44,896 nt of DNA, taken from UHGV virus genome UHGV-0338188. The stretch is one strand, 5' to 3'. Source of the stretch: a virus. This document shows positions 1,060-39,590 of this stretch, piece by piece. Under the pieces are notes generated by a model that saw only the letters and a program-made list of their open reading frames with translations, made no database searches and was not told where the DNA came from. A program made the translations under genes and the position numbers. Each line of letters starts with the position of its first letter. Position 1 is the stretch's first letter.

Positions 1060-1067
1060 TTAATGAT

Positions 1068-1081
1068 GTTTCACATGGAAC
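1068..1081. promoter_or_regulatory. conserved 14-bp near-palindrome GTTTCACATGGAAC (motif copy 1)
   Basis: Member of the GTTTCAYRTGRAAC family, which recurs at 7049, 12860, 29096 and 39577. Lies just after the last early gene. Confidence 0.5.
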
Positions 1082-1250
1082 ATTAGTGTATAATGAATGA
1101 AGATGCCACGGCATCGATCATTTGGTTTCTTCTTTCATGATTCAAGTCCGATTTTTGTTGGAGAAGTCGGCAACGATGTGGATTGATTGGACTACTCACA
1201 ATTTTCCATTTCTTATCCTATCGAATTCGGCCGTTGGTGGTCGGGATGAA

Positions 1251-1277
1251 GGTTTGCTTAACAGCAAGCCTTTTTTT
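1251..1277 (+). terminator. rho-independent terminator at the end of the early region
   Basis: GGTTTGCT-TAAC-AGCAAGCC gives an 8-bp stem (one G-U pair) followed by TTTTTTT. Confidence 0.7.
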
Positions 1278-1290
1278 GTTGGTTTCCGTG

Positions 1291-1296
1291 TATAAT
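1291..1296 (+). promoter_or_regulatory. putative -10 box (TATAAT, preceded by GTG) of the late/packaging operon promoter
   Basis: TATAAT lies 14 nt after the terminator and 32 nt before the ParB-like gene start. No good -35 element. Confidence 0.35.
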
Positions 1297-1328
1297 AGAC
1301 GTATCAAATGCAAGAAAGGAGAAAGGAC

Positions 1329-5686: not shown

Positions 5687-6652
5687 ATGAACCGGGCAGA
5701 AGGATCAGACGAATTCATTGCAGAGATCGGACAGCCGTTTTCGGATGAGGTAGCCAAGCGATCGATAAAGATGCAAGATGAGATCACGAAGCTATTAAGC
5801 AAACAACGTGGCTATTTCGAAAAGATGATCAAAGAATCAACAGCTTTGCCGGATTTGCTTGTGGATAAGTATACCGGAGAGAAAGAAGACAGCGAAAAGC
5901 GGATTGATTTCGAAGATTTTGGCTTTGAGTTTGACACAGAACAAGAGAAAGAAGCGTTCCTTTTATGGTTCAAAGCGAATTTTTACACCGATGAAATGGA
6001 TAAATTGATGCAAGAGGAATGGACGGAAATCCTTATGCGTTGGATCACAGACATCGTGACAGTGGTCGGCGAAATTAATCTTGCAGTTATCGGCATCGAT
6101 ACCGATTTCGGTTGGATCGATGATGCATTAGTCGAGCAAGTCGAATATATGGCCACCACATCCACAAGGGAAATAGTGGGAACAAACTATCGATCAGTTA
6201 TGAAAAACATCCTGACAACGGTCAAGAAGGGCAATTGGTCGATTCCGGAAGCCGTGAAGAACCTCAAAGAAGAGTTTGCCTTTTCGAATAAGCGTGCAAA
6301 AGTGATCGCACGAACGGAGATATTGCGAGCACAGTCAACAGGCCAATTCGGATCGGACATCGATGCATATGATCGGGGATTGATCATTGGCAAGGAATGG
6401 CACAGCACGCACGATCATCGCACAAGAGATTCGCACGTGTCAGCAGATGGCCAGATTCGGGAGTTCCTAGAGCCGTTCGAATTAGTCAGCAATGGCACAG
6501 TATCTTATATGTTTTTCCCAAGAGATACATCGCTATCAGCGCCAGCAAACGAGGTCGTTCAGTGCAGATGTTTCTATACTCGTATCATGGCAGGACAGGA
6601 ACAAAAAATGATCGATGCCGGATATAGCGTTGACGAAAAAGAAATCAACTGA
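5687..6652 (+). CDS. head morphogenesis protein (SPP1 gp7 / Mu F-like)
   Basis: 321 aa following the portal gene; the C-terminal WHSTHDHRTRDSH...CRC region is typical of the MuF-like family. Confidence 0.65.
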   Translation: MNRAEGSDEFIAEIGQPFSDEVAKRSIKMQDEITKLLSKQRGYFEKMIKESTALPDLLVDKYTGEKEDSEKRIDFEDFGFEFDTEQEKEAFLLWFKANFYTDEMDKLMQEEWTEILMRWITDIVTVVGEINLAVIGIDTDFGWIDDALVEQVEYMATTSTREIVGTNYRSVMKNILTTVKKGNWSIPEAVKNLKEEFAFSNKRAKVIARTEILRAQSTGQFGSDIDAYDRGLIIGKEWHSTHDHRTRDSHVSADGQIREFLEPFELVSNGTVSYMFFPRDTSLSAPANEVVQCRCFYTRIMAGQEQKMIDAGYSVDEKEIN

Positions 6653-6786
6653 TAGTATTAATTTTGTCAGAAGAACCGAACACAATTATACAAAACTAAA
6701 AAATTCACTATTTTTTATCGGTTTAACTGATTCTTTCTTTTTCTTTAATGCATGTGAGGTCGTAAGGGGAAACGATCAGCGGATGA

Positions 6787-6813
6787 GGGTTGCGAAAGCA
6801 ATCCTTTTCGTTT
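6787..6813 (+). terminator. rho-independent terminator (T1) inside the structural-module gap
   Basis: GGGTTGC-GAAA-GCAATCC gives a 7-bp stem with a GNRA loop, followed by TTTTCGTTT. Confidence 0.55.
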
Positions 6814-6911
6814 ATACTTAATGCATACCTACTTTTTCATTTGTTTTTTTCCATACAAGGGAACTCTTTCATTCGAGAAGCGGCGCTGACGTTTTCAGTG
6901 CCGTTTTTTTA

Positions 6912-6920
6912 TGTTAAAAT
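6912..6920 (+). promoter_or_regulatory. extended -10 element (TGTTAAAAT) of a candidate sRNA promoter
   Basis: TGnTAaAAT motif with a weak -35 element. Confidence 0.3.
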
Positions 6921-6927
6921 GAACATA

Positions 6928-7010
6928 CCATGCGGAAACATGGCGTGTTTAACAAAAACCTATCTTTCGACAAGGGGCGATCTCATCTTTTGATGGGGTT
7001 GCCTTTTTAT
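6928..7010 (+). ncRNA. candidate small RNA (~85 nt) running from the predicted TSS to terminator T2
   Basis: Bounded by an extended -10 element and a strong terminator. Only a 17-codon ORF without an RBS lies inside it. A CCATG-N6-CATGG hairpin sits at 6928..6943. Confidence 0.3.
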
Positions 7011-7013
7011 TTT
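6976..7013 (+). terminator. rho-independent terminator (T2), + strand specific
   Basis: GGCGAUCUCAUC-UUUU-GAUGGGGUUGCC gives a 12-bp stem with three G-U pairs, followed by UUUUUAUUUU. The G-U pairs form only in the + strand transcript. Confidence 0.7.
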
Positions 7014-7033
7014 GCGCAGAAACGCTTGTTTGC

Positions 7034-7042
7034 TGATATAAT
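7034..7042 (+). promoter_or_regulatory. extended -10 promoter element (TGATATAAT)
   Basis: Consensus TGnTATAAT; lies 37 nt upstream of the sORF start. Confidence 0.5.
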
Positions 7043-7048
7043 CGAATT

Positions 7049-7062
7049 GTTACATGTGAAAC
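7049..7062. promoter_or_regulatory. motif copy 2 (GTTACATGTGAAAC)
   Basis: Lies 6 nt after the -10 element and 3 nt before RBS GGGAGGG. Confidence 0.5.
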
Positions 7063-7078
7063 ATAGGGAGGGAAAATC

Positions 7079-7210
7079 GTGCAGGAAATGAAGAAAACGA
7101 ACCGAAAACATGAAAAAACAGCAGAAATAGCATTCAAAACCGGATATGACAAGCAAAACGAAGATATTTCTGCTAAAATTCTAGTGAAGACGAAAGGAGG
7201 TGGAGAATAA
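7079..7210 (+). CDS. small lysine-rich protein (43 aa, GTG start); its stop overlaps the protease ATG
   Basis: GGGAGGG RBS 6 nt before GTG; TAAATG junction with the next gene. Confidence 0.4.
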   Translation: MQEMKKTNRKHEKTAEIAFKTGYDKQNEDISAKILVKTKGGGE

Positions 7211-8347
7211 ATGAATTTATACGAAAGACAAATGACGGTTCAAACAGCATCCGGAAACGTGGAGCAATACATGGATCGCATTAATCAAATGTCACATGTG
7301 CAATTAAGTGCAGAAGATGTGTTCGTGTATCAAGGTATTATCTCATCGGATGCGATGGATAGTTACTATACAAAAATGGATGCAGAAACTTCCTTGCGAA
7401 ACTATGCCAACGATCTGAAAGCAGGAACGCCATTAATGACGTATCACGAAACATCACAATCGCCGATCGGCCGATCCTTTGATTCATCAATTGATGTCAA
7501 AGAGGATGGGAAAACAGTTGTTCGGGGATTGTTTTACATCGTTCGTCATACGAAAATCAATGGAGAAAGCACAGATGATCTTATCCGCCAGATCGAAACA
7601 GGAACATTGACAGAAATGTCAGTGGGATTTGGTGGGATAAATTTATGGTATAAATCAAGTTACGATGGCAAAGATATCTATGAATCACGCTACTATCCAG
7701 GAGATAAAGACGAAAACGGCAATTTAGTGTATTATTACATTATGGATGCGACGTTGCGAGAAGTTTCTCTTGTTTACAAGGGAGCTTGCCCGGATGCCGT
7801 AGTCGAACGAATCAGAAACGATTTGCCGAATATGGAGGATGCCGAAAGACAAATCCAGAAATACGAAACACGTTTCAACGTTCGGATCGATATGCCAAAA
7901 CAGCGTAGCAAGGAGGGAAAACGGATGAACATTGAAGAAATCACAAGAGCAGTAGAAAAAGGCGATTTGCAACGTGGCGAATTGCTGAAAGCATTAAAAG
8001 TCGATGCAATCACAGAAGGTCAACGTTCGATCCTTAAAGAATTGGGCGAAGATGCAAGCATCGAAACCGTTCGATCGCTGAAAGAAAAAGCAGAGATCGG
8101 AGAACGAGCATTCAACGAAAAATTGGATGAGTTAGTGAAAGCACGTGTTGCGATTGGTCAAGAGTTCGATCAAGAAAAATACAAAGAACAAATGCGATCA
8201 ATGGATGTCGATTTCATCGAAGATCAAACACGATTATTCGAAGATATCAAGAAAGCAGAGTTCAAACCAGGCCGACAAACACAAAAACAAAATGATGAAG
8301 ATGGCAAAGCCATTTTCGTAAGTGAATCATATAAGGGGGAGAAATAA
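7211..8347 (+). CDS. prohead protease (S78-like) fused to a scaffold-like coiled-coil domain
   Basis: The N-terminal half has a His...EDG..GL...SVGF pattern like HK97-family proteases. The C-terminal roughly 150 aa is K/E-rich coiled coil. RBS GGAGGTGGAG. Confidence 0.6.
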   Translation: MNLYERQMTVQTASGNVEQYMDRINQMSHVQLSAEDVFVYQGIISSDAMDSYYTKMDAETSLRNYANDLKAGTPLMTYHETSQSPIGRSFDSSIDVKEDGKTVVRGLFYIVRHTKINGESTDDLIRQIETGTLTEMSVGFGGINLWYKSSYDGKDIYESRYYPGDKDENGNLVYYYIMDATLREVSLVYKGACPDAVVERIRNDLPNMEDAERQIQKYETRFNVRIDMPKQRSKEGKRMNIEEITRAVEKGDLQRGELLKALKVDAITEGQRSILKELGEDASIETVRSLKEKAEIGERAFNEKLDELVKARVAIGQEFDQEKYKEQMRSMDVDFIEDQTRLFEDIKKAEFKPGRQTQKQNDEDGKAIFVSESYKGEK

Positions 8348-8756: not shown

Positions 8757-9850
8757 TGAAAATCTTTAAACAACCGAAAATCGAAGTGAAAAACCGTTTC
8801 GGCCAATTGGTCACATTGGAAGAAGCGAATTTCATCGAAACAGTTCGTGAACATGCAAAAAATGAACGCAACATCAGCGAAAATCTTATCAACGAAGATT
8901 CATCCATGATGGTTCGTTCATTCCTGGAAGATAACGGCTTGACAATGGGAGATTTCGACAATTTCTTATCACGTGATGTGAAAGATGCACGTGTTCGTGA
9001 GTTCATTTACAACACAGGGTTAGAACCAGTGTTCACAACAATCGTAGAATCATATGTGCGTGGTCAATATGAATCAGTTGACGAATTAGGCGATCTTGTG
9101 ATGTCACGTGTGCCAATGGATCAAATGACACAAGCTTATTATTCAGCAATCAGCGAAGACGGCGAAGCATATGAAATGGTTATCGTGGCAGAGAGTGCAG
9201 ATATTCCGGTTACTAAACTAGTAACAGATACAAAACACATGATTGTCGCAGAGAAAAAAGGCCGTGGACTTTCATTGACTGATGAATCAGTGAAATCACA
9301 ACGTATCGATCAATTACAAGCATTCTTCCGTAAATTGGGAATTCGCTTGCAAAAATCCGAAGTTAAGCAAGCAATCAGCGTGCTATTAAACGGATATTTC
9401 GGCGATATCGATGCACCACAAACAATCGGTGTGAAAAGCACAACATCTTATGATCTAACTGATTTATGGTTCGCACATCGTGTCATGACGGATGATTATG
9501 GTTTCGTTCCTAACGAATACATCATGAACCGTAAGACAGCAACAGAATATCTAGGATTGAAAGATGGCCAAGGCAATTTCTTCTTTTTACAAAACATTTT
9601 GAATGCATCATTGCCAGAAGGTATCCAAAACGCAAAAATCCGCATCAACGAAGAAATCACAGATGATAAAATCTTGCTTGTGGATAAACGCAATGCCTTG
9701 CAAGAATACGTATTCAAAGACTTATCAAGTGAAACAGAACGTTCAGCAAGCAAACAAGCATCAATAGTCTACACATCTAAGATCAATCAATTCGTTCCGT
9801 TTGAAAAGAACGCACGCATGATCCTAGACTTGAAACAAACACGTAGTTAA
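8756..9850 (+). CDS. major capsid protein
   Basis: 364 aa in the capsid position; followed by a terminator, as is typical for abundant capsid mRNA. Confidence 0.65.
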   Translation: MKIFKQPKIEVKNRFGQLVTLEEANFIETVREHAKNERNISENLINEDSSMMVRSFLEDNGLTMGDFDNFLSRDVKDARVREFIYNTGLEPVFTTIVESYVRGQYESVDELGDLVMSRVPMDQMTQAYYSAISEDGEAYEMVIVAESADIPVTKLVTDTKHMIVAEKKGRGLSLTDESVKSQRIDQLQAFFRKLGIRLQKSEVKQAISVLLNGYFGDIDAPQTIGVKSTTSYDLTDLWFAHRVMTDDYGFVPNEYIMNRKTATEYLGLKDGQGNFFFLQNILNASLPEGIQNAKIRINEEITDDKILLVDKRNALQEYVFKDLSSETERSASKQASIVYTSKINQFVPFEKNARMILDLKQTRS

Positions 9851-9851
9851 G

Positions 9852-9885
9852 CCGGCTATTATAGCCGGTTTCCATTAATTTTTTT
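9852..9885 (+). terminator. terminator-like hairpin after the capsid gene
   Basis: CCGGCTA-TTA-TAGCCGG gives a 7-bp stem, followed by TTTCCATTAATTTTTTT. Confidence 0.45.
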
Positions 9886-12831: not shown

Positions 12832-12859
12832 GGTGGTGGCGATATTATTCGCCATCACT

Positions 12860-13808: not shown

Positions 13809-13819
13809 ATTTTTGGAAG

Positions 13820-13850
13820 GCTATGAATTTTCGTTCATAGTCTTTTTTTA
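13820..13850 (+). terminator. rho-independent terminator between the chaperone and tape-measure genes
   Basis: CTATGAA-TTTTCG-TTCATAG gives a 7-bp stem, followed by TCTTTTTTATT. Confidence 0.6.
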
Positions 13851-31201: not shown

Positions 31202-31238
31202 AGAAAAAAGTTCGGTCAGAAATGGCCGTTCTTTTTTT
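31202..31238. terminator. bidirectional-type terminator closing the late operon
   Basis: AAAAAAG..CGG-loop-CCG..CTTTTTTT: an imperfect dyad flanked by A and T tracts. Confidence 0.45.
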
Positions 31239-31260: not shown

Positions 31261-31289
31261 TTGCAAATTGTAACATATCATGATATAAT
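31261..31289 (+). promoter_or_regulatory. early promoter (TTGCAA - 17 nt - TGATATAAT)
   Basis: Near-consensus sigma-A -35 element, 17-nt spacer, and extended -10. Confidence 0.65.
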
Positions 31290-38063: not shown

Positions 38064-38118
38064 GCGAGAAGACTCCCACCTTAAGGAACGAAAGTAAATA
38101 GGTGGGAGATGAATCGCC
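38064..38118. repeat. left boundary hairpin (GGCGA..CTCCCACCT-loop-AGGTGGGAG..TCGCC), related to the hairpin at 39532..39562
   Basis: Stem of 9 bp plus 5 bp. The loop sequence TAAGGAACGAAAGT parallels TAAGCGAAGCGAAAGT in the right-hand copy. Confidence 0.5.
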
Positions 38119-38134
38119 TTTGAACAAGGGATGA

Positions 38135-38287
38135 CTACTTACCATCTCTATTGTCCAACTGTTCAAGTGCATATTGAATAAGATAAATAATTGTTTGGGT
38201 ACGAGTTGTGAAACCCTTCTTTTCTTTGAACTCGTCAATTCGTTTCAATAATTCTTTTGGATAACGCATATTCAAAACTTGCGACAT
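38135..38287 (-). CDS. ribbon-helix-helix-like small DNA-binding protein (50 aa; below the ORF-track size cutoff)
   Basis: Minus-strand ATG with RBS GGAGGTT and a 5-nt spacer. The MRYPKELLKRIDEFKEKKGFTTRTQTIIYLIQYALEQL pattern resembles Arc/CopG-type proteins. Confidence 0.45.
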   Translation of the reverse strand: MSQVLNMRYPKELLKRIDEFKEKKGFTTRTQTIIYLIQYALEQLDNRDGK

Positions 38288-38373: not shown

Positions 38374-39498
38374 ATGATTGTGAATAAAGCATATAAATTT
38401 AGAATCTATCCAAACAAAGAACAAGAAATACTGATTGCTAAAACAATCGGTTGTTCTCGTTTTGTATTCAATCATTTCCTCGCAAAATGGAACGATACTT
38501 ATAAGGCAACAGGAAAAGGTTTGACTTACAATTCGTGTTCTTCTCAATTAACCCAATTAAAGAAAGAATTAGTTTGGTTAAAAGAGGTGGACAGCATTGC
38601 GATTCAATCTTCACTCAAAAACCTTGCTGATGCATATTCTCGCTTCTTTAAGAAGCAAAACGATGCACCTCACTTCAAGTCCAAAAAGAATAAGGTTCAA
38701 TCTTATACAACAAAACACACGAATGGAAACATTGCCATTGAAGGCAACAAAATCAAATTGCCTAAACTTGGATGGATTCGTTTTGCAAAGAGTCGTGAAG
38801 TAGAAGGTCGTATTCTCAATGCAACAATTAGACGAAAATCAAGTGGAAAACATTTTGTATCCATTCTTGTAGAAACAGAAGTACAACCGTTAGAAAAAAC
38901 AGGTTCTTCTGTGGGCATAGATGTCGGCTTGAAAGATTTTGCTATTCTTTCAGATGGAACAAAATACAAAAACCCAAAATGGTTGCGTAAATTAGAAAAG
39001 AAATTAGCAAAAGAACAACGGATTCTTTCAAGACGTAAAAAAGGTGGTTCAAATTGGAATAAGCAACGAATTAAAGTAGCTCGTATTCACGAAAAAATTA
39101 CAAATACAAGAAAAGATTACTTGGACAAAATCTCTACCTATATTGTCAAGAACCACGACATTATCGGGATTGAAGATTTGTCAGTATCGAATATGTTAAA
39201 GAATCATAACCTTGCAAAAGCGATCAGCGAAGTATCTTGGTATCAATTCAGAACGATGCTTGAATACAAAGCGAAATGGCACGGCAAACAAGTTGTTGCG
39301 GTATCTAAAACGTTTGCAAGTTCTCAATTGTGTTCGTGTTGTGGATACAAAAACAAAGACGTTAAGAATCTAAATCTTCGTGAATGGGATTGCCCATCTT
39401 GTGGAACACATCACGACAGAGATATTAACGCAAGTTTGAATCTTAAAAATGAAGCTATAAGGCTTCTAACCGTAGGGACTACGGGGATAGCCTACTAA
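38374..39498 (+). CDS. tnpB: TnpB (IS200/IS605-family OrfB; RuvC-like RNA-guided nuclease)
   Basis: OrfB N-terminus [10 protein letters not shown]; Ruv[12 protein letters not shown], Ruv[14 protein letters not shown], zinc finger CSCCGY...CPSCG, Ruv[12 protein letters not shown]. Confidence 0.85.
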
Positions 39499-39590
39499 AT
39501 ATTCGCTCGATAGAGCGAAGTTCGTAGGAATCTCCCACTTCTAAGCGAAGCGAAAGTGGGAGTAGTTCAATCTAATGTTTCACATGAAAC
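39380..39590 (+). ncRNA. putative omega-RNA (right-end RNA) scaffold and guide region
   Basis: Hairpins CGCTC-GATA-GAGCG (39504..39517) and CTCCCACTT-N13-AAGTGGGAG (39532..39562) lie just 3' of tnpB. In characterised TnpB systems the guide follows the right end. Confidence 0.3.
39577..39590. promoter_or_regulatory. motif copy 5 (GTTTCACATGAAAC)
   Basis: Lies 8 nt upstream of RBS GGAGGG of the gene at 39612. Confidence 0.5.

What the first reader, a model, noticed from the sequence alone, without database searches (positions are those of the whole stretch)
6653..7078. A roughly 560-bp non-coding island inside the head module: two intrinsic terminators bracket a putative ~85-nt small RNA, followed by a promoter, the motif and a sORF coupled to the protease gene
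There is no credible ORF between the MuF-like gene stop (6652) and the protease/scaffold start (7211). The 6790..6993 ORF in the track has no RBS and spans two terminator hairpins. The region contains T1 at 6787..6813 (7-bp stem, GAAA loop, U-tract). It then contains an extended -10 element (TGTTAAAAT, 6912..6920) and a short hairpin (CCATG-N6-CATGG, 6928..6943). T2 follows at 6976..7013 and is very strong: a 12-bp stem whose three G-U pairs form only in the + strand RNA, then UUUUUAUUUU. That strand specificity argues for a real + strand transcript ending at about 7010, that is, a small RNA of about 85 nt. After T2 come a new promoter (TGATATAAT, 7034), motif copy 2, RBS GGGAGGG and a 43-codon GTG ORF whose stop overlaps the protease ATG (TAAATG). 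A transcriptional insulator plus sRNA gene at this position in a phage morphogenesis operon is not a standard feature.
Basis: seen in the sequence. Interest (0 to 1): 0.55.

Follow-up and report, generated by a model that had tools for sequence, protein, structure and literature searches.

The report
Conserved terminator–promoter boundary in phage head genes
The gap between two head-assembly genes of this Enterococcus phage is a strongly conserved non-coding stretch with three transcription stop signals in a row and then a strong restart promoter; this looks like an ordinary operon boundary, the proposed small RNA is unproven, and the "small ORF" is what a deletion left of a longer accessory gene.

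Summary
The window is a ~44.9-kb lytic Enterococcus faecium siphophage, 96% identical to fHoEfm07, with nearly all genes on the + strand. Three corrections apply. (1) There are three + strand intrinsic terminators, not two: T1 at 6778-6816, a missed T1.5 at 6878-6911, and T2 at 6972-7013. (2) The non-coding part is 426 nt. (3) The 43-codon GTG ORF is the C-terminal remnant of a 116-aa ORF that most relatives carry intact; a 220-bp deletion moved its RBS next to codon 74.

Across 27 haplotypes from metagenomes, 9.8% of non-coding sites vary, against 28% of third codon positions in the flanking genes (p=3e-11). T1, the T2 stem and the promoter/palindrome are almost invariant. The proposed sRNA body (6912-6971) varies about as much as third codon positions.

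Best reading: a conserved transcription-unit boundary. Tandem terminators end the packaging/portal/MuF unit. An extended -10 promoter (TGATATAAT) with a 16-bp palindrome at its predicted start site then restarts transcription for the accessory ORF, protease and capsid genes. Discrete small RNAs remain possible but have no support. No Rfam match, no expression data. Interest is modest; this is a new member of a known kind.

The parts
5687..6652 (+). MuF-like head morphogenesis gene, the last gene of the upstream (ParB-like/TerS/TerL/portal/MuF) block
   Evidence: Pfam Phage_Mu_F 3.6e-12 and phrog_2468 8e-35. pN/pS 0.10.
6666..6730 (+). Predicted weak A/U-rich stem-loop just after the MuF stop, inside a conserved non-coding segment (6653-6781)
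   Evidence: Part of the MFE and centroid fold; -14.2 kcal/mol on its own. 10 of 12 outer pairs are invariant. In 6653-6781, 10/133 sites vary.
6778..6816 (+). T1: intrinsic terminator (core stem 6785-6806, GAAA loop, tail UUUUCGUUUAU)
   Evidence: 9 pairs. -15.3 kcal/mol, z -4.8; the - strand version gives -7.6. 0 of 35 sites vary in 27 haplotypes. Four invariant G-U pairs.
6790..6818 (+). Weak promoter-like match TTGCGA-17-TATACT, overlapping T1
   Evidence: 9/12 consensus match. Not above the local shuffle expectation (3 found against 1.3+-1.0). Two haplotypes have TATATT. Function not inferred.
6878..6911 (+).
   Evidence: -17.7 kcal/mol, z -5.0. Stem variation keeps pairing on the + strand: 6884:6900 is C-G, U-G or U-A, and 6885:6899 is G-U or G-C.
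6912..6920 (+). TGTTAAAAT, the candidate extended -10 for the proposed sRNA
   Evidence: Exact match, invariant in the population. However, TGnTAAAAT occurs 6 times on the + strand and 4 on the - strand, mostly inside genes.
6922..6971 (+). Body of the proposed sRNA: small hairpin 6928-6943, then an A/C/U-rich single-stranded stretch
   Evidence: The hairpin is weak: -7.2 kcal/mol, z -1.9. In 6912-6971, 11/62 sites vary (pi 0.058), not distinguishable from third codon positions.
6972..7013 (+). T2: strongest intrinsic terminator of the window (16-pair stem with 5 G-U, UUUU loop, tail UUUUUAUUUU)
   Evidence: -22.2 kcal/mol, z -6.5, against -6.9 on the - strand. Stem 6973-7008 is invariant in 27 haplotypes.
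7034..7042 (+). Extended -10 promoter TGATATAAT; no good -35
   Evidence: 4 of 5 + strand TGnTATAAT sites lie in intergenic DNA (about 6% of the genome). The site is invariant. The 20 nt upstream (7014-7033) vary about as much as third codon positions, 5/20, as expected if no -35 is needed.
7048..7063 (+). 16-bp palindrome TGTTACATGTGAAACA (family TGTTTCACRTGAAACA) at about +1 to +16 of the predicted transcript; a putative operator
   Evidence: 8 sites in the window; 18 strand-hits against 1.5 expected. Invariant here. Three copies lie next to TATAAT boxes and four lie 2-7 nt upstream of an RBS.
7066..7072 (+). RBS GGGAGGG of the accessory ORF. The 220-bp deletion junction lies immediately 3' of it (GGGAGGGAAAA|TCGTG)
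7079..7210 (+). 43-codon GTG ORF, equal to codons 74-116 of a 116-aa accessory ORF (fHoEfm07_00005). Its stop abuts the protease ATG
   Evidence: The deletion allele occurs in window/L013, L015, L018 and L032. pN/pS is 0.50 for the full ORF. No Pfam, PHROG, NCBIfam or PDB relative. Not listed among the 12 proteins detected in the fHoEfm07 virion proteome (PMC13227665).
7211..8347 (+).
   Evidence: Pfam 6.9e-5 and phrog_80. pN/pS 0.04.

Best explanation
Positions 6653-7078 are a conserved boundary between two transcription units in the late region.

Proposed mechanism:
1. Transcripts that cover the ParB-like, terminase, portal and MuF genes end at three tandem Rho-independent terminators: T1, T1.5 and T2. 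All three fold only in the + strand RNA.
2. About 25 nt after T2, a sigma-A-type extended -10 promoter (TGATATAAT) restarts transcription.
3. A 16-bp palindrome covers the predicted start site. It most likely acts as the operator of a dimeric DNA-binding regulator that also has sites at other promoters and gene starts of the phage.
4. The new transcript carries a dispensable, fast-evolving accessory ORF. It is 116 aa in most genomes and is cut to its last 43 codons here by a 220-bp deletion.
5. That ORF's stop abuts the ATG of the prohead protease gene. The capsid genes follow.

Shown:
- The hairpins, their thermodynamics and their strand asymmetry.
- Purifying selection on the non-coding DNA, strongest on T1, the T2 stem and the promoter/palindrome.
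- The deletion origin of the sORF.

Inferred:
- That the hairpins terminate transcription.
- That TGATATAAT fires.
- That the palindrome is an operator.
- That short RNAs ending at T1.5 or T2, if they exist, are by-products rather than the purpose of the region.
For: Terminators:
- Three hairpin+U-tract elements on the + strand fold at -15.3, -17.7 and -22.2 kcal/mol, with 0/200 shuffles as stable. The - strand versions fold at -7.6, -11.8 and -6.9.
- Terminator-like sites number 3 in 6620-7080 (two on the + strand, T1 and T2; the scan missed T1.5), against 0.3+-0.6 in local shuffles.
- The region folds with z -5.9 on the + strand and -2.1 on the - strand.

Conservation across 27 haplotypes:
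- Non-coding sites vary at 41/420; third codon positions of MuF and protease vary at 112/405 (p=3e-11).
- Non-coding pi is 0.031, against pS of 0.08-0.13.
- T1, the T2 stem and the promoter/palindrome together vary at 1/101 sites; the rest of the gap varies at 40/319 (p=2e-4).
- Stem variants in T1.5 keep pairing.

Promoter:
- 4 of 5 + strand TGnTATAAT sites are intergenic.

Context:
- The same genome has a terminator followed by a promoter at 1248/1289 and at 31213/31281, and terminators after the capsid gene (9849) and before the tape-measure gene (13815).
- In relatives with 28-37% identical proteases, the same junction is variable. It holds unrelated small ORFs and, in some, operator-like inverted repeats just upstream of the protease or small-ORF RBS.
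- This fits a unit that starts at the protease gene.
Against: - There are no transcript data of any kind for this phage lineage.
- Plain terminators and one promoter account for only about 130 of the 426 constrained nucleotides. Segments 6653-6781 and 6817-6877 vary at only 7.5-8% of sites and have no assigned element.
- It is unclear why insulation is needed, because the downstream genes need more transcript, not less.
- Terminators 9849 and 13815 have no promoter-like match between them and the next gene, so they must be leaky or antiterminated. T1-T2 could be as well.
- Covariation is statistically uninformative, because the population is only 2-4% diverged.
Confidence: 0.55

Rival explanations
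1. One or more stand-alone small RNA genes. The first reader's version is a ~85-nt RNA starting near 6928 (promoter TGTTAAAAT) and ending at T2. An extended version has three tandem promoter-terminator mini-units: ~6665 to T1, ~6825 to T1.5, and ~6928 to T2. These would give trans-acting or sponge RNAs.
For: - A promoter-like match precedes each terminator: 6630-6658, 6790-6818 and 6892-6920.
- TGTTAAAAT is invariant.
- The layout of 5' hairpin, single-stranded stretch and terminator is sRNA-like.
- The whole gap is under purifying selection that terminators alone do not explain.
- Short terminated transcripts are common in phages, and some are functional: StxS and lambda 6S/LPR2 (PMC7547250; bioRxiv 10.1101/2024.10.31.621285; PMC10914365).
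Against: - Promoter-like matches are not above the local shuffle expectation: 3 against 1.3+-1.0.
- TGnTAAAAT sites occur equally on both strands and inside genes.
- The proposed sRNA body is among the least constrained parts of the gap, p=0.12 against third codon positions.
- There is no Rfam hit.
- Best predicted duplexes with phage translation-initiation regions fall within shuffled controls.
- The 13-nt match to the start of gene 31320 is low-complexity.
Confidence: 0.22
2. Conditional terminators. T1-T2 would form a timing checkpoint in one long late transcript. A phage antitermination factor would let transcription read through them late in infection, as with lambda Q or N, and the conserved flanking RNA would serve as its loading or recognition element.
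For: - Other late-region terminators (9849, 13815) have no promoter-like match before the next gene, yet they precede essential tail genes, so read-through must occur somewhere.
- The late leader has TATAAT (1089), then a terminator (1248), then a second TATAAT (1289), which resembles lambda PR'-tR'.
- There is unexplained constraint on 6653-6781.
Against: - No antiterminator homologue was found among the 16 early-region or promoter-proximal proteins scanned.
- A strong, invariant promoter directly after T2 makes read-through unnecessary here.
- No box-like element is shared between the gap and the 1100-1250 leader.
Confidence: 0.15
3. Decayed remnant of lost accessory genes (old moron insertions) at a junction that is a hotspot for small-ORF turnover. 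The hairpins would be leftover terminators with no present function.
For: - Distant relatives carry 0-2 unrelated small ORFs at this junction.
- The adjacent ORF116 is itself being eroded, by a deletion allele and by a nonsense allele in L041.
- The T1.5 and T2 units show faint similarity that suggests a duplication (p about 0.05).
Against: - The non-coding stretch evolves at about 0.3 of the synonymous rate (p=3e-11).
- The hairpins are the most conserved parts, which neutral debris would not show.
Confidence: 0.05

Closest known systems
Rho-independent (intrinsic) terminators, used in tandem at operon ends
   Same: G+C-rich stem-loops followed directly by U-tracts, on the coding strand, just downstream of a gene. 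They are strand-specific because of G-U pairs.
   Different: Three lie within 235 nt inside a head-morphogenesis gene block. Activity is not measured.
Promoter-proximal terminators that give short transcripts in phages: lambda PR'-tR' 6S RNA, StxS of Stx phages, and the 5'UTR terminators seen by ONT-cappable-seq in Pseudomonas phages (PMC7547250; bioRxiv 10.1101/2024.10.31.621285; PMC10914365)
   Same: A -10-like element lies 60-150 nt upstream of a strong terminator. If the promoter fires, this gives an RNA of under 250 nt, which can be a by-product or a regulator.
   Different: No evidence that the upstream -10-like elements fire. No Q/N-type antiterminator was identified. No sequence similarity. 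The host is Gram-positive.
Morons (accessory gene units inserted between conserved late genes of tailed phages; my recollection of Hendrix and colleagues' concept)
   Same: ORF116 is an orphan, fast-evolving, dispensable ORF with its own promoter, placed between two conserved head genes at a junction where relatives carry other small ORFs.
   Different: There is no terminator after it. Its stop abuts the protease ATG, so it shares its transcript with the essential downstream genes.
Split late transcription in Gram-positive siphophages, with the packaging/portal genes and the scaffold/capsid genes in separate units (e.g. SPP1; recalled from memory, not checked here)
   Same: A transcription-unit break lies between the low-copy packaging/portal/minor-head genes and the high-copy head structural genes.
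   Different: Not a sequence relative. The break here carries three terminators and a palindromic operator-like site.

Membership tests
Intrinsic (Rho-independent) terminator | Stable G+C-containing stem-loop in the RNA of the transcribed strand | tested here: met
   T1 -15.3, T1.5 -17.7 and T2 -22.2 kcal/mol, each with 0/200 shuffles as stable. The - strand versions are much weaker.
Intrinsic (Rho-independent) terminator | U-tract immediately 3' of the stem | tested here: met
   UUUUCGUUUAU, UUUUUUU and UUUUUAUUUU.
Intrinsic (Rho-independent) terminator | Measured termination (3' ends, drop in downstream transcription) | not testable with these tools
   No transcriptome exists for this phage lineage. 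The only paper on it (PMC13227665) has none.
Trans-acting small RNA gene | Own promoter and defined 5' end | tested here: inconclusive
   TGTTAAAAT is present and invariant. However, that motif class is not enriched on the coding strand or in intergenic DNA, and local promoter-like matches are not above shuffles.
Trans-acting small RNA gene | Conserved body or seed relative to neutral sites | tested here: not met
   In 6912-6971, 11/62 sites vary, against 112/405 third codon positions (p=0.12). It is among the least conserved parts of the gap.
Trans-acting small RNA gene | Membership of a described RNA family | tested here: not met
   No Rfam match at gathering thresholds in the whole window. 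The best sub-threshold E-value in 6000-7800 is 0.21.
Trans-acting small RNA gene | Detected discrete transcript | not testable with these tools
   Needs a Northern blot or RNA-seq of infected cells.
Sigma-A extended -10 promoter | TGnTATAAT consensus in a position to drive a downstream gene | tested here: met
   TGATATAAT at 7034-7042, 36 nt before the ORF start. 4 of 5 + strand copies of this motif are intergenic. Invariant in 21 haplotypes.
Sigma-A extended -10 promoter | Mapped transcription start | not testable with these tools
   Needs 5'-end mapping.
Moron (accessory gene cassette in a late operon) | Non-essential gene between conserved late genes, variable among relatives | tested here: met
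   ORF116 has no relatives in Pfam, PHROGs, NCBIfam or PDB. pN/pS is 0.50. Deletion and nonsense alleles occur. Distant relatives carry other small ORFs at this junction.
Moron (accessory gene cassette in a late operon) | Own terminator downstream of the gene | tested here: not met
   The stop TAA at 7208-7210 is followed directly by the protease ATG at 7211.

The most novel reading that the evidence does not exclude
The 426-nt stretch is a tandem array of two or three short non-coding RNA genes of about 85-150 nt. Each would have its promoter overlapping the previous unit's terminator. They may have arisen by duplication, since the T1.5 and T2 units are faintly alike. The array would be kept under purifying selection in a lytic Enterococcus phage because the RNAs act on host or phage gene expression during late infection. 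That would make it a phage sRNA cluster embedded in the head-gene block.
Probability: 0.15. Interest if true: 0.6.

Novelty: new member of a known kind. Interest (0 to 1): 0.33.

Why it matters
fHoEfm07-like phages are a newly described, unclassified lineage that infects E. faecium. Three practical points follow.
- Knowing where the late transcription units begin and end, and which palindrome sits at their promoters, helps phage engineering. The MuF-protease junction tolerates a 220-bp deletion and a nonsense allele, so it is a natural insertion site for payloads.
- The region supplies candidate strong terminators and a promoter for Enterococcus tools.
- A 426-nt non-coding stretch that evolves at about one third of the synonymous rate says there is function beyond what the annotated elements explain. 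A single end-resolved RNA-seq experiment could test this cheaply.

Tried and rejected
- Rfam, with e-value mode on 6000-7800 and gathering mode on the whole window: nothing. tRNA/tmRNA scan: none.
- Hidden protein genes in the gap: rejected, because frame-breaking 1-2-nt indels segregate in the population.
- Homology of the gap DNA elsewhere:
  - Among GenBank phages, only fHoEfm07 matches.
  - An exact 20-mer from T2 finds only the same phage in IMG/VR, GTDB genomes and JGI metagenomes. One of those hits is a contig of a MAG labelled Bacteroidia.
- Copies of the gap units elsewhere in the window, by sensitive blastn: only the 16-bp palindrome recurs.
- Statistical covariation test of seven helices: 99.3% of cells are paired, but there is too little divergence to beat the shuffles.
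- sRNA target search:
  - A 13-nt match was found between 6833-6845 and the start of early gene 31320 (18 pairs if G-U pairs are counted by eye, which was not computed).
  - It is low-complexity, and RNAduplex energies of units A and B against 54 phage translation-initiation regions fall within shuffled controls.
- My own terminator scanner was too strict to be useful. A first duplex run timed out.
- ORF116 function: no Pfam, PHROGs, NCBIfam or PDB relative.
- Link between the gap and the phage's TnpB element: no similarity beyond the palindrome.
- Terminator triplet in distant relatives: not found.
Full report
**What the window is**

The 44.9-kb window is a complete or nearly complete genome of a lytic Enterococcus siphophage. 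Nearly all its genes are on the + strand. Its only GenBank relative is E. faecium phage fHoEfm07 (PV296021), which is 96% identical over the region. Its authors describe fHoEfm07 as unlike any known genus (PMC13227665). One IMG/VR contig and more than 120 metagenome-derived protease variants at 98-100% identity, most on 44-45-kb contigs, belong to the same tight cluster.

The finding lies between two genes:
- the MuF-like gene, 5687-6652 (Pfam Phage_Mu_F);
- the prohead protease, 7211-8347 (Peptidase_S78).

**Checking the observation**

All the listed elements are present at the stated coordinates.

| Element | Position | Fold, + strand (kcal/mol) | z | Fold, - strand |
|---|---|---|---|---|
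| T1 | core 6785-6806 | -15.3 | -4.8 | -7.6 |
| T2 | 6972-7007 + UUUUUAUUUU | -22.2 | -6.5 | -6.9 |
| Small hairpin | 6928-6943 | -7.2 | -1.9 | not folded |

- T2's strand specificity comes from its five G-U pairs.
- The whole 426-nt stretch folds far better than shuffles on the + strand (z -5.9) than on the - strand (z -2.1).
- Terminator-like sites in 6620-7080 number 3, against 0.3+-0.6 in local shuffles.

Three corrections are needed.

1. A third + strand terminator was missed. I call it T1.5. It has a 12-pair stem at 6878-6906 followed by seven U, and folds at -17.7 kcal/mol with z -5.0. It ends exactly where the proposed sRNA promoter TGTTAAAAT begins.
2. The sORF stop abuts the protease ATG; it does not overlap it.
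3. The sORF is not an independent small gene (see the next section).

**The sORF is a deletion remnant**

fHoEfm07, the IMG/VR contig and most metagenome contigs carry a 116-aa ORF (fHoEfm07_00005) that fills the 351 nt before the protease gene.

- The window lacks 220 bp directly after the RBS GGGAGGG. The junction reads GGGAGGGAAAA|TCGTG.
- This places the RBS six nucleotides before GTG codon 74 of the long ORF.
- The same junction is found in four haplotypes from different samples: window/L013, L015, L018 and L032.
- Another haplotype (L041) has a stop at codon 75.

What is known about ORF116:
- It has no relative in Pfam, PHROGs, NCBIfam or the PDB.
- It is not listed among the 12 proteins detected in the fHoEfm07 virion proteome, whereas MuF, protease and capsid are.
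- Its pN/pS is 0.50, against 0.10 for MuF and 0.04 for the protease.

ORF116 is therefore a real but weakly constrained, dispensable accessory gene.

**The non-coding stretch is under selection**

I fetched 37 loci, which gave 27 distinct haplotypes of the MuF-gap-protease region.

| Region | Variable sites | pi |
|---|---|---|
| Non-coding 6653-7065 | 41/420 (9.8%) | 0.031 |
| Third codon positions, MuF + protease | 112/405 (28%) | pS 0.08-0.11 (ORF116 0.13) |
| T1 (6782-6816) | 0/35 | 0 |
| T2 stem (6973-7008) | 0/36 | 0 |
| Promoter + palindrome (7034-7063) | 1/30 | 0.007 |
| 7014-7033, upstream of the -10 | 5/20 | 0.078 |
| Proposed sRNA body (6912-6971) | 11/62 | 0.058 |
| 6653-6781 | 10/133 (7.5%) | 0.026 |
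| 6817-6877 | 5/61 (8.2%) | 0.031 |

(Values.)

- Non-coding sites against third codon positions: Fisher p=3e-11.
- T1, the T2 stem and the promoter/palindrome together (1/101) against the rest of the gap (40/319): p=2e-4.
- The high variability of 7014-7033 is what an extended -10 promoter without a -35 element would show.
- The proposed sRNA body against third codon positions: p=0.12.
- Segments 6653-6781 and 6817-6877 are also constrained, yet I cannot assign a specific element to them.
- One- and two-nt indels scattered through the gap rule out the mechanical ORFs 6615-6821, 6790-6993 and 6949-7152(-).

For base-pair support, 99.3% of cells in seven helices are paired, and all eight extra pair types are switches between wobble and Watson-Crick pairs. 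One T1.5 pair appears as C-G, U-G and U-A. The population is too little diverged for this to beat the shuffle controls.

**Promoters**

TGnTATAAT occurs five times on the + strand: 7034, 12823, 27770, 31281 and 38323. It occurs once on the - strand. Four of the five + strand copies lie in intergenic DNA, which is about 6% of the genome. TGATATAAT at 7034 is therefore a credible promoter.

The TGnTAAAAT class, which includes the proposed sRNA promoter at 6912, occurs six times on the + strand and four on the - strand, mostly inside genes. By itself it says little. The three -35/-10 matches in the gap (6630, 6790, 6892) are not above local shuffles, 3 against 1.3+-1.0.

**The motif**

The 16-bp palindrome TGTTTCACRTGAAACA has eight sites in the window, giving 18 strand-hits against 1.5 expected.
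- At 7048 it covers the predicted transcription start of the 7034 promoter.
- At 1067 it lies just upstream of a TATAAT box.
- At 12859 it lies 27 nt downstream of TGCTATAAT.
- At 7048, 12859, 29095 and 39576 it lies 2-7 nt before an RBS.
- Positions 5 and 12 are not kept complementary in three of the eight sites.

That last point favours a DNA operator for a dimeric protein over an RNA hairpin. This is an inference.

**Context in this genome and in relatives**

Other strong + strand terminators lie at:
- 1248, in the leader before the ParB-like/terminase genes, followed by a second TATAAT;
- 9849, after the major capsid gene;
- 13815, before the tape-measure gene;
- 31213, after the lysin gene, followed by TGATATAAT at 31281.

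Terminator-then-promoter junctions, and terminators inside the late region, are therefore part of this phage's normal layout.

In phages with proteases 28-37% identical (Bacillus phage CUBc25 and eleven IMG/VR loci), the portal/MuF-protease junction is 149-1944 nt long. It holds up to six unrelated small ORFs, 0-2 in all but one locus. In some it carries operator-like inverted repeats just before the RBS. No terminator triplet occurs. The junction is thus a variable slot where accessory genes and regulatory DNA turn over.

**Interpretation**

The best-supported reading (confidence 0.55) is a conserved transcription-unit boundary. Tandem terminators end the packaging/portal/MuF unit. A strong promoter with an operator-like palindrome then starts the unit that carries ORF116, the protease and the capsid genes.

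The rivals are:
- The sRNA reading (0.22) remains open. Promoter-proximal terminators in phages often yield short RNAs, and some of those are functional (PMC10914365; PMC7547250; bioRxiv 10.1101/2024.10.31.621285). Here, however, the body is about as variable as third codon positions, the promoter evidence is weak, Rfam is silent, and a target search among phage translation-initiation regions gives nothing above shuffled controls.
- Conditional terminators (0.15) are suggested by the late-region terminators that have no promoter-like match before the next gene. No antiterminator was recognised among the 16 early-region or promoter-proximal proteins scanned.
- Neutral debris (0.05) is contradicted by the conservation.

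**Verdict**

This is a new example of known kinds of element, in a new phage lineage. Interest is modest (0.33). The unexplained constraint on about 190 nt of the gap (6653-6781 and 6817-6877) is the one part worth an experiment.

Noticed in passing
window 38374-39498 (+), with 38135-38287 (-) and hairpins near 38083-38118 and 39535-39570: A full-length TnpB (Pfam OrfB_IS605 2e-32, Cas12f1-like TNB, HTH_OrfB_IS605) sits inside this lytic phage. Next to it, divergently oriented, is a 50-aa ribbon-helix-helix-like ORF with only weak NikR N-terminal matches. Similar hairpins CTCCCACyT...ArGTGGGAG flank the unit and could be its left and right ends. The 16-bp palindrome at 39576 starts right after the putative right end, which is where a TnpB guide RNA would begin.
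   Followed up: partly
window 1067, 7048, 12859, 18237, 29095, 31889, 39576, 42702: The 16-bp palindrome TGTTTCACRTGAAACA is strongly over-represented (18 strand-hits against 1.5 expected). It lies next to TATAAT boxes at three sites and 2-7 nt upstream of an RBS at four. It is probably the operator of an unidentified regulator.
   Followed up: partly
window 1067-1308: The leader before the ParB-like/terminase genes runs: palindrome, TATAAT (1089-1094), about 150 nt, strong terminator (1248-1273 plus a T run), then a second GTGTATAAT (1287-1295). The layout recalls lambda PR'-tR' and would give a ~175-nt terminated RNA.
   Followed up: no
window 9849-9871 and 13815-13846: + strand terminators lie directly after the major capsid gene and directly before the tape-measure gene. 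No promoter-like match was found between either terminator and the next gene. Read-through or antitermination must therefore occur in the late region.
   Followed up: no
L041 2150-2374; window/L013, L015, L018, L032: ORF116 is polymorphic for loss. There is a nonsense allele at codon 75 (L041) and a shared 220-bp N-terminal deletion allele. In both, translation could restart near codon 74-77, which would keep the last ~40 codons and the contact with the protease start.
   Followed up: partly
L020 4687-4899 (Bacillus phage vB_BcM_CUBc25, PV037644): An unannotated 70-aa ORF with a good RBS (MPQTNEQIENTFSYHPPEEG...) fills the portal/MuF-protease gap. The same ORF recurs in IMG/VR relatives L047 and L048. 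Other relatives carry different small ORFs there, so the junction is a hotspot for accessory genes.
   Followed up: partly
L022 (JAGYKL010000059.1, 4917 bp): A contig binned into a MAG labelled 'Bacteroidia bacterium' carries an exact 20-mer of this Enterococcus phage's T2 region. This is probably a mis-binned phage contig.
   Followed up: no
window 6860-6911 versus 6955-7013: The sequences leading into T1.5 and T2 are faintly alike: AACTCTTTCATTCGAGAAGCGGCG against AACCTATCTTTCGACAAGGGGCG (shuffle p about 0.05). This suggests an old tandem duplication of a terminator unit.
   Followed up: partly
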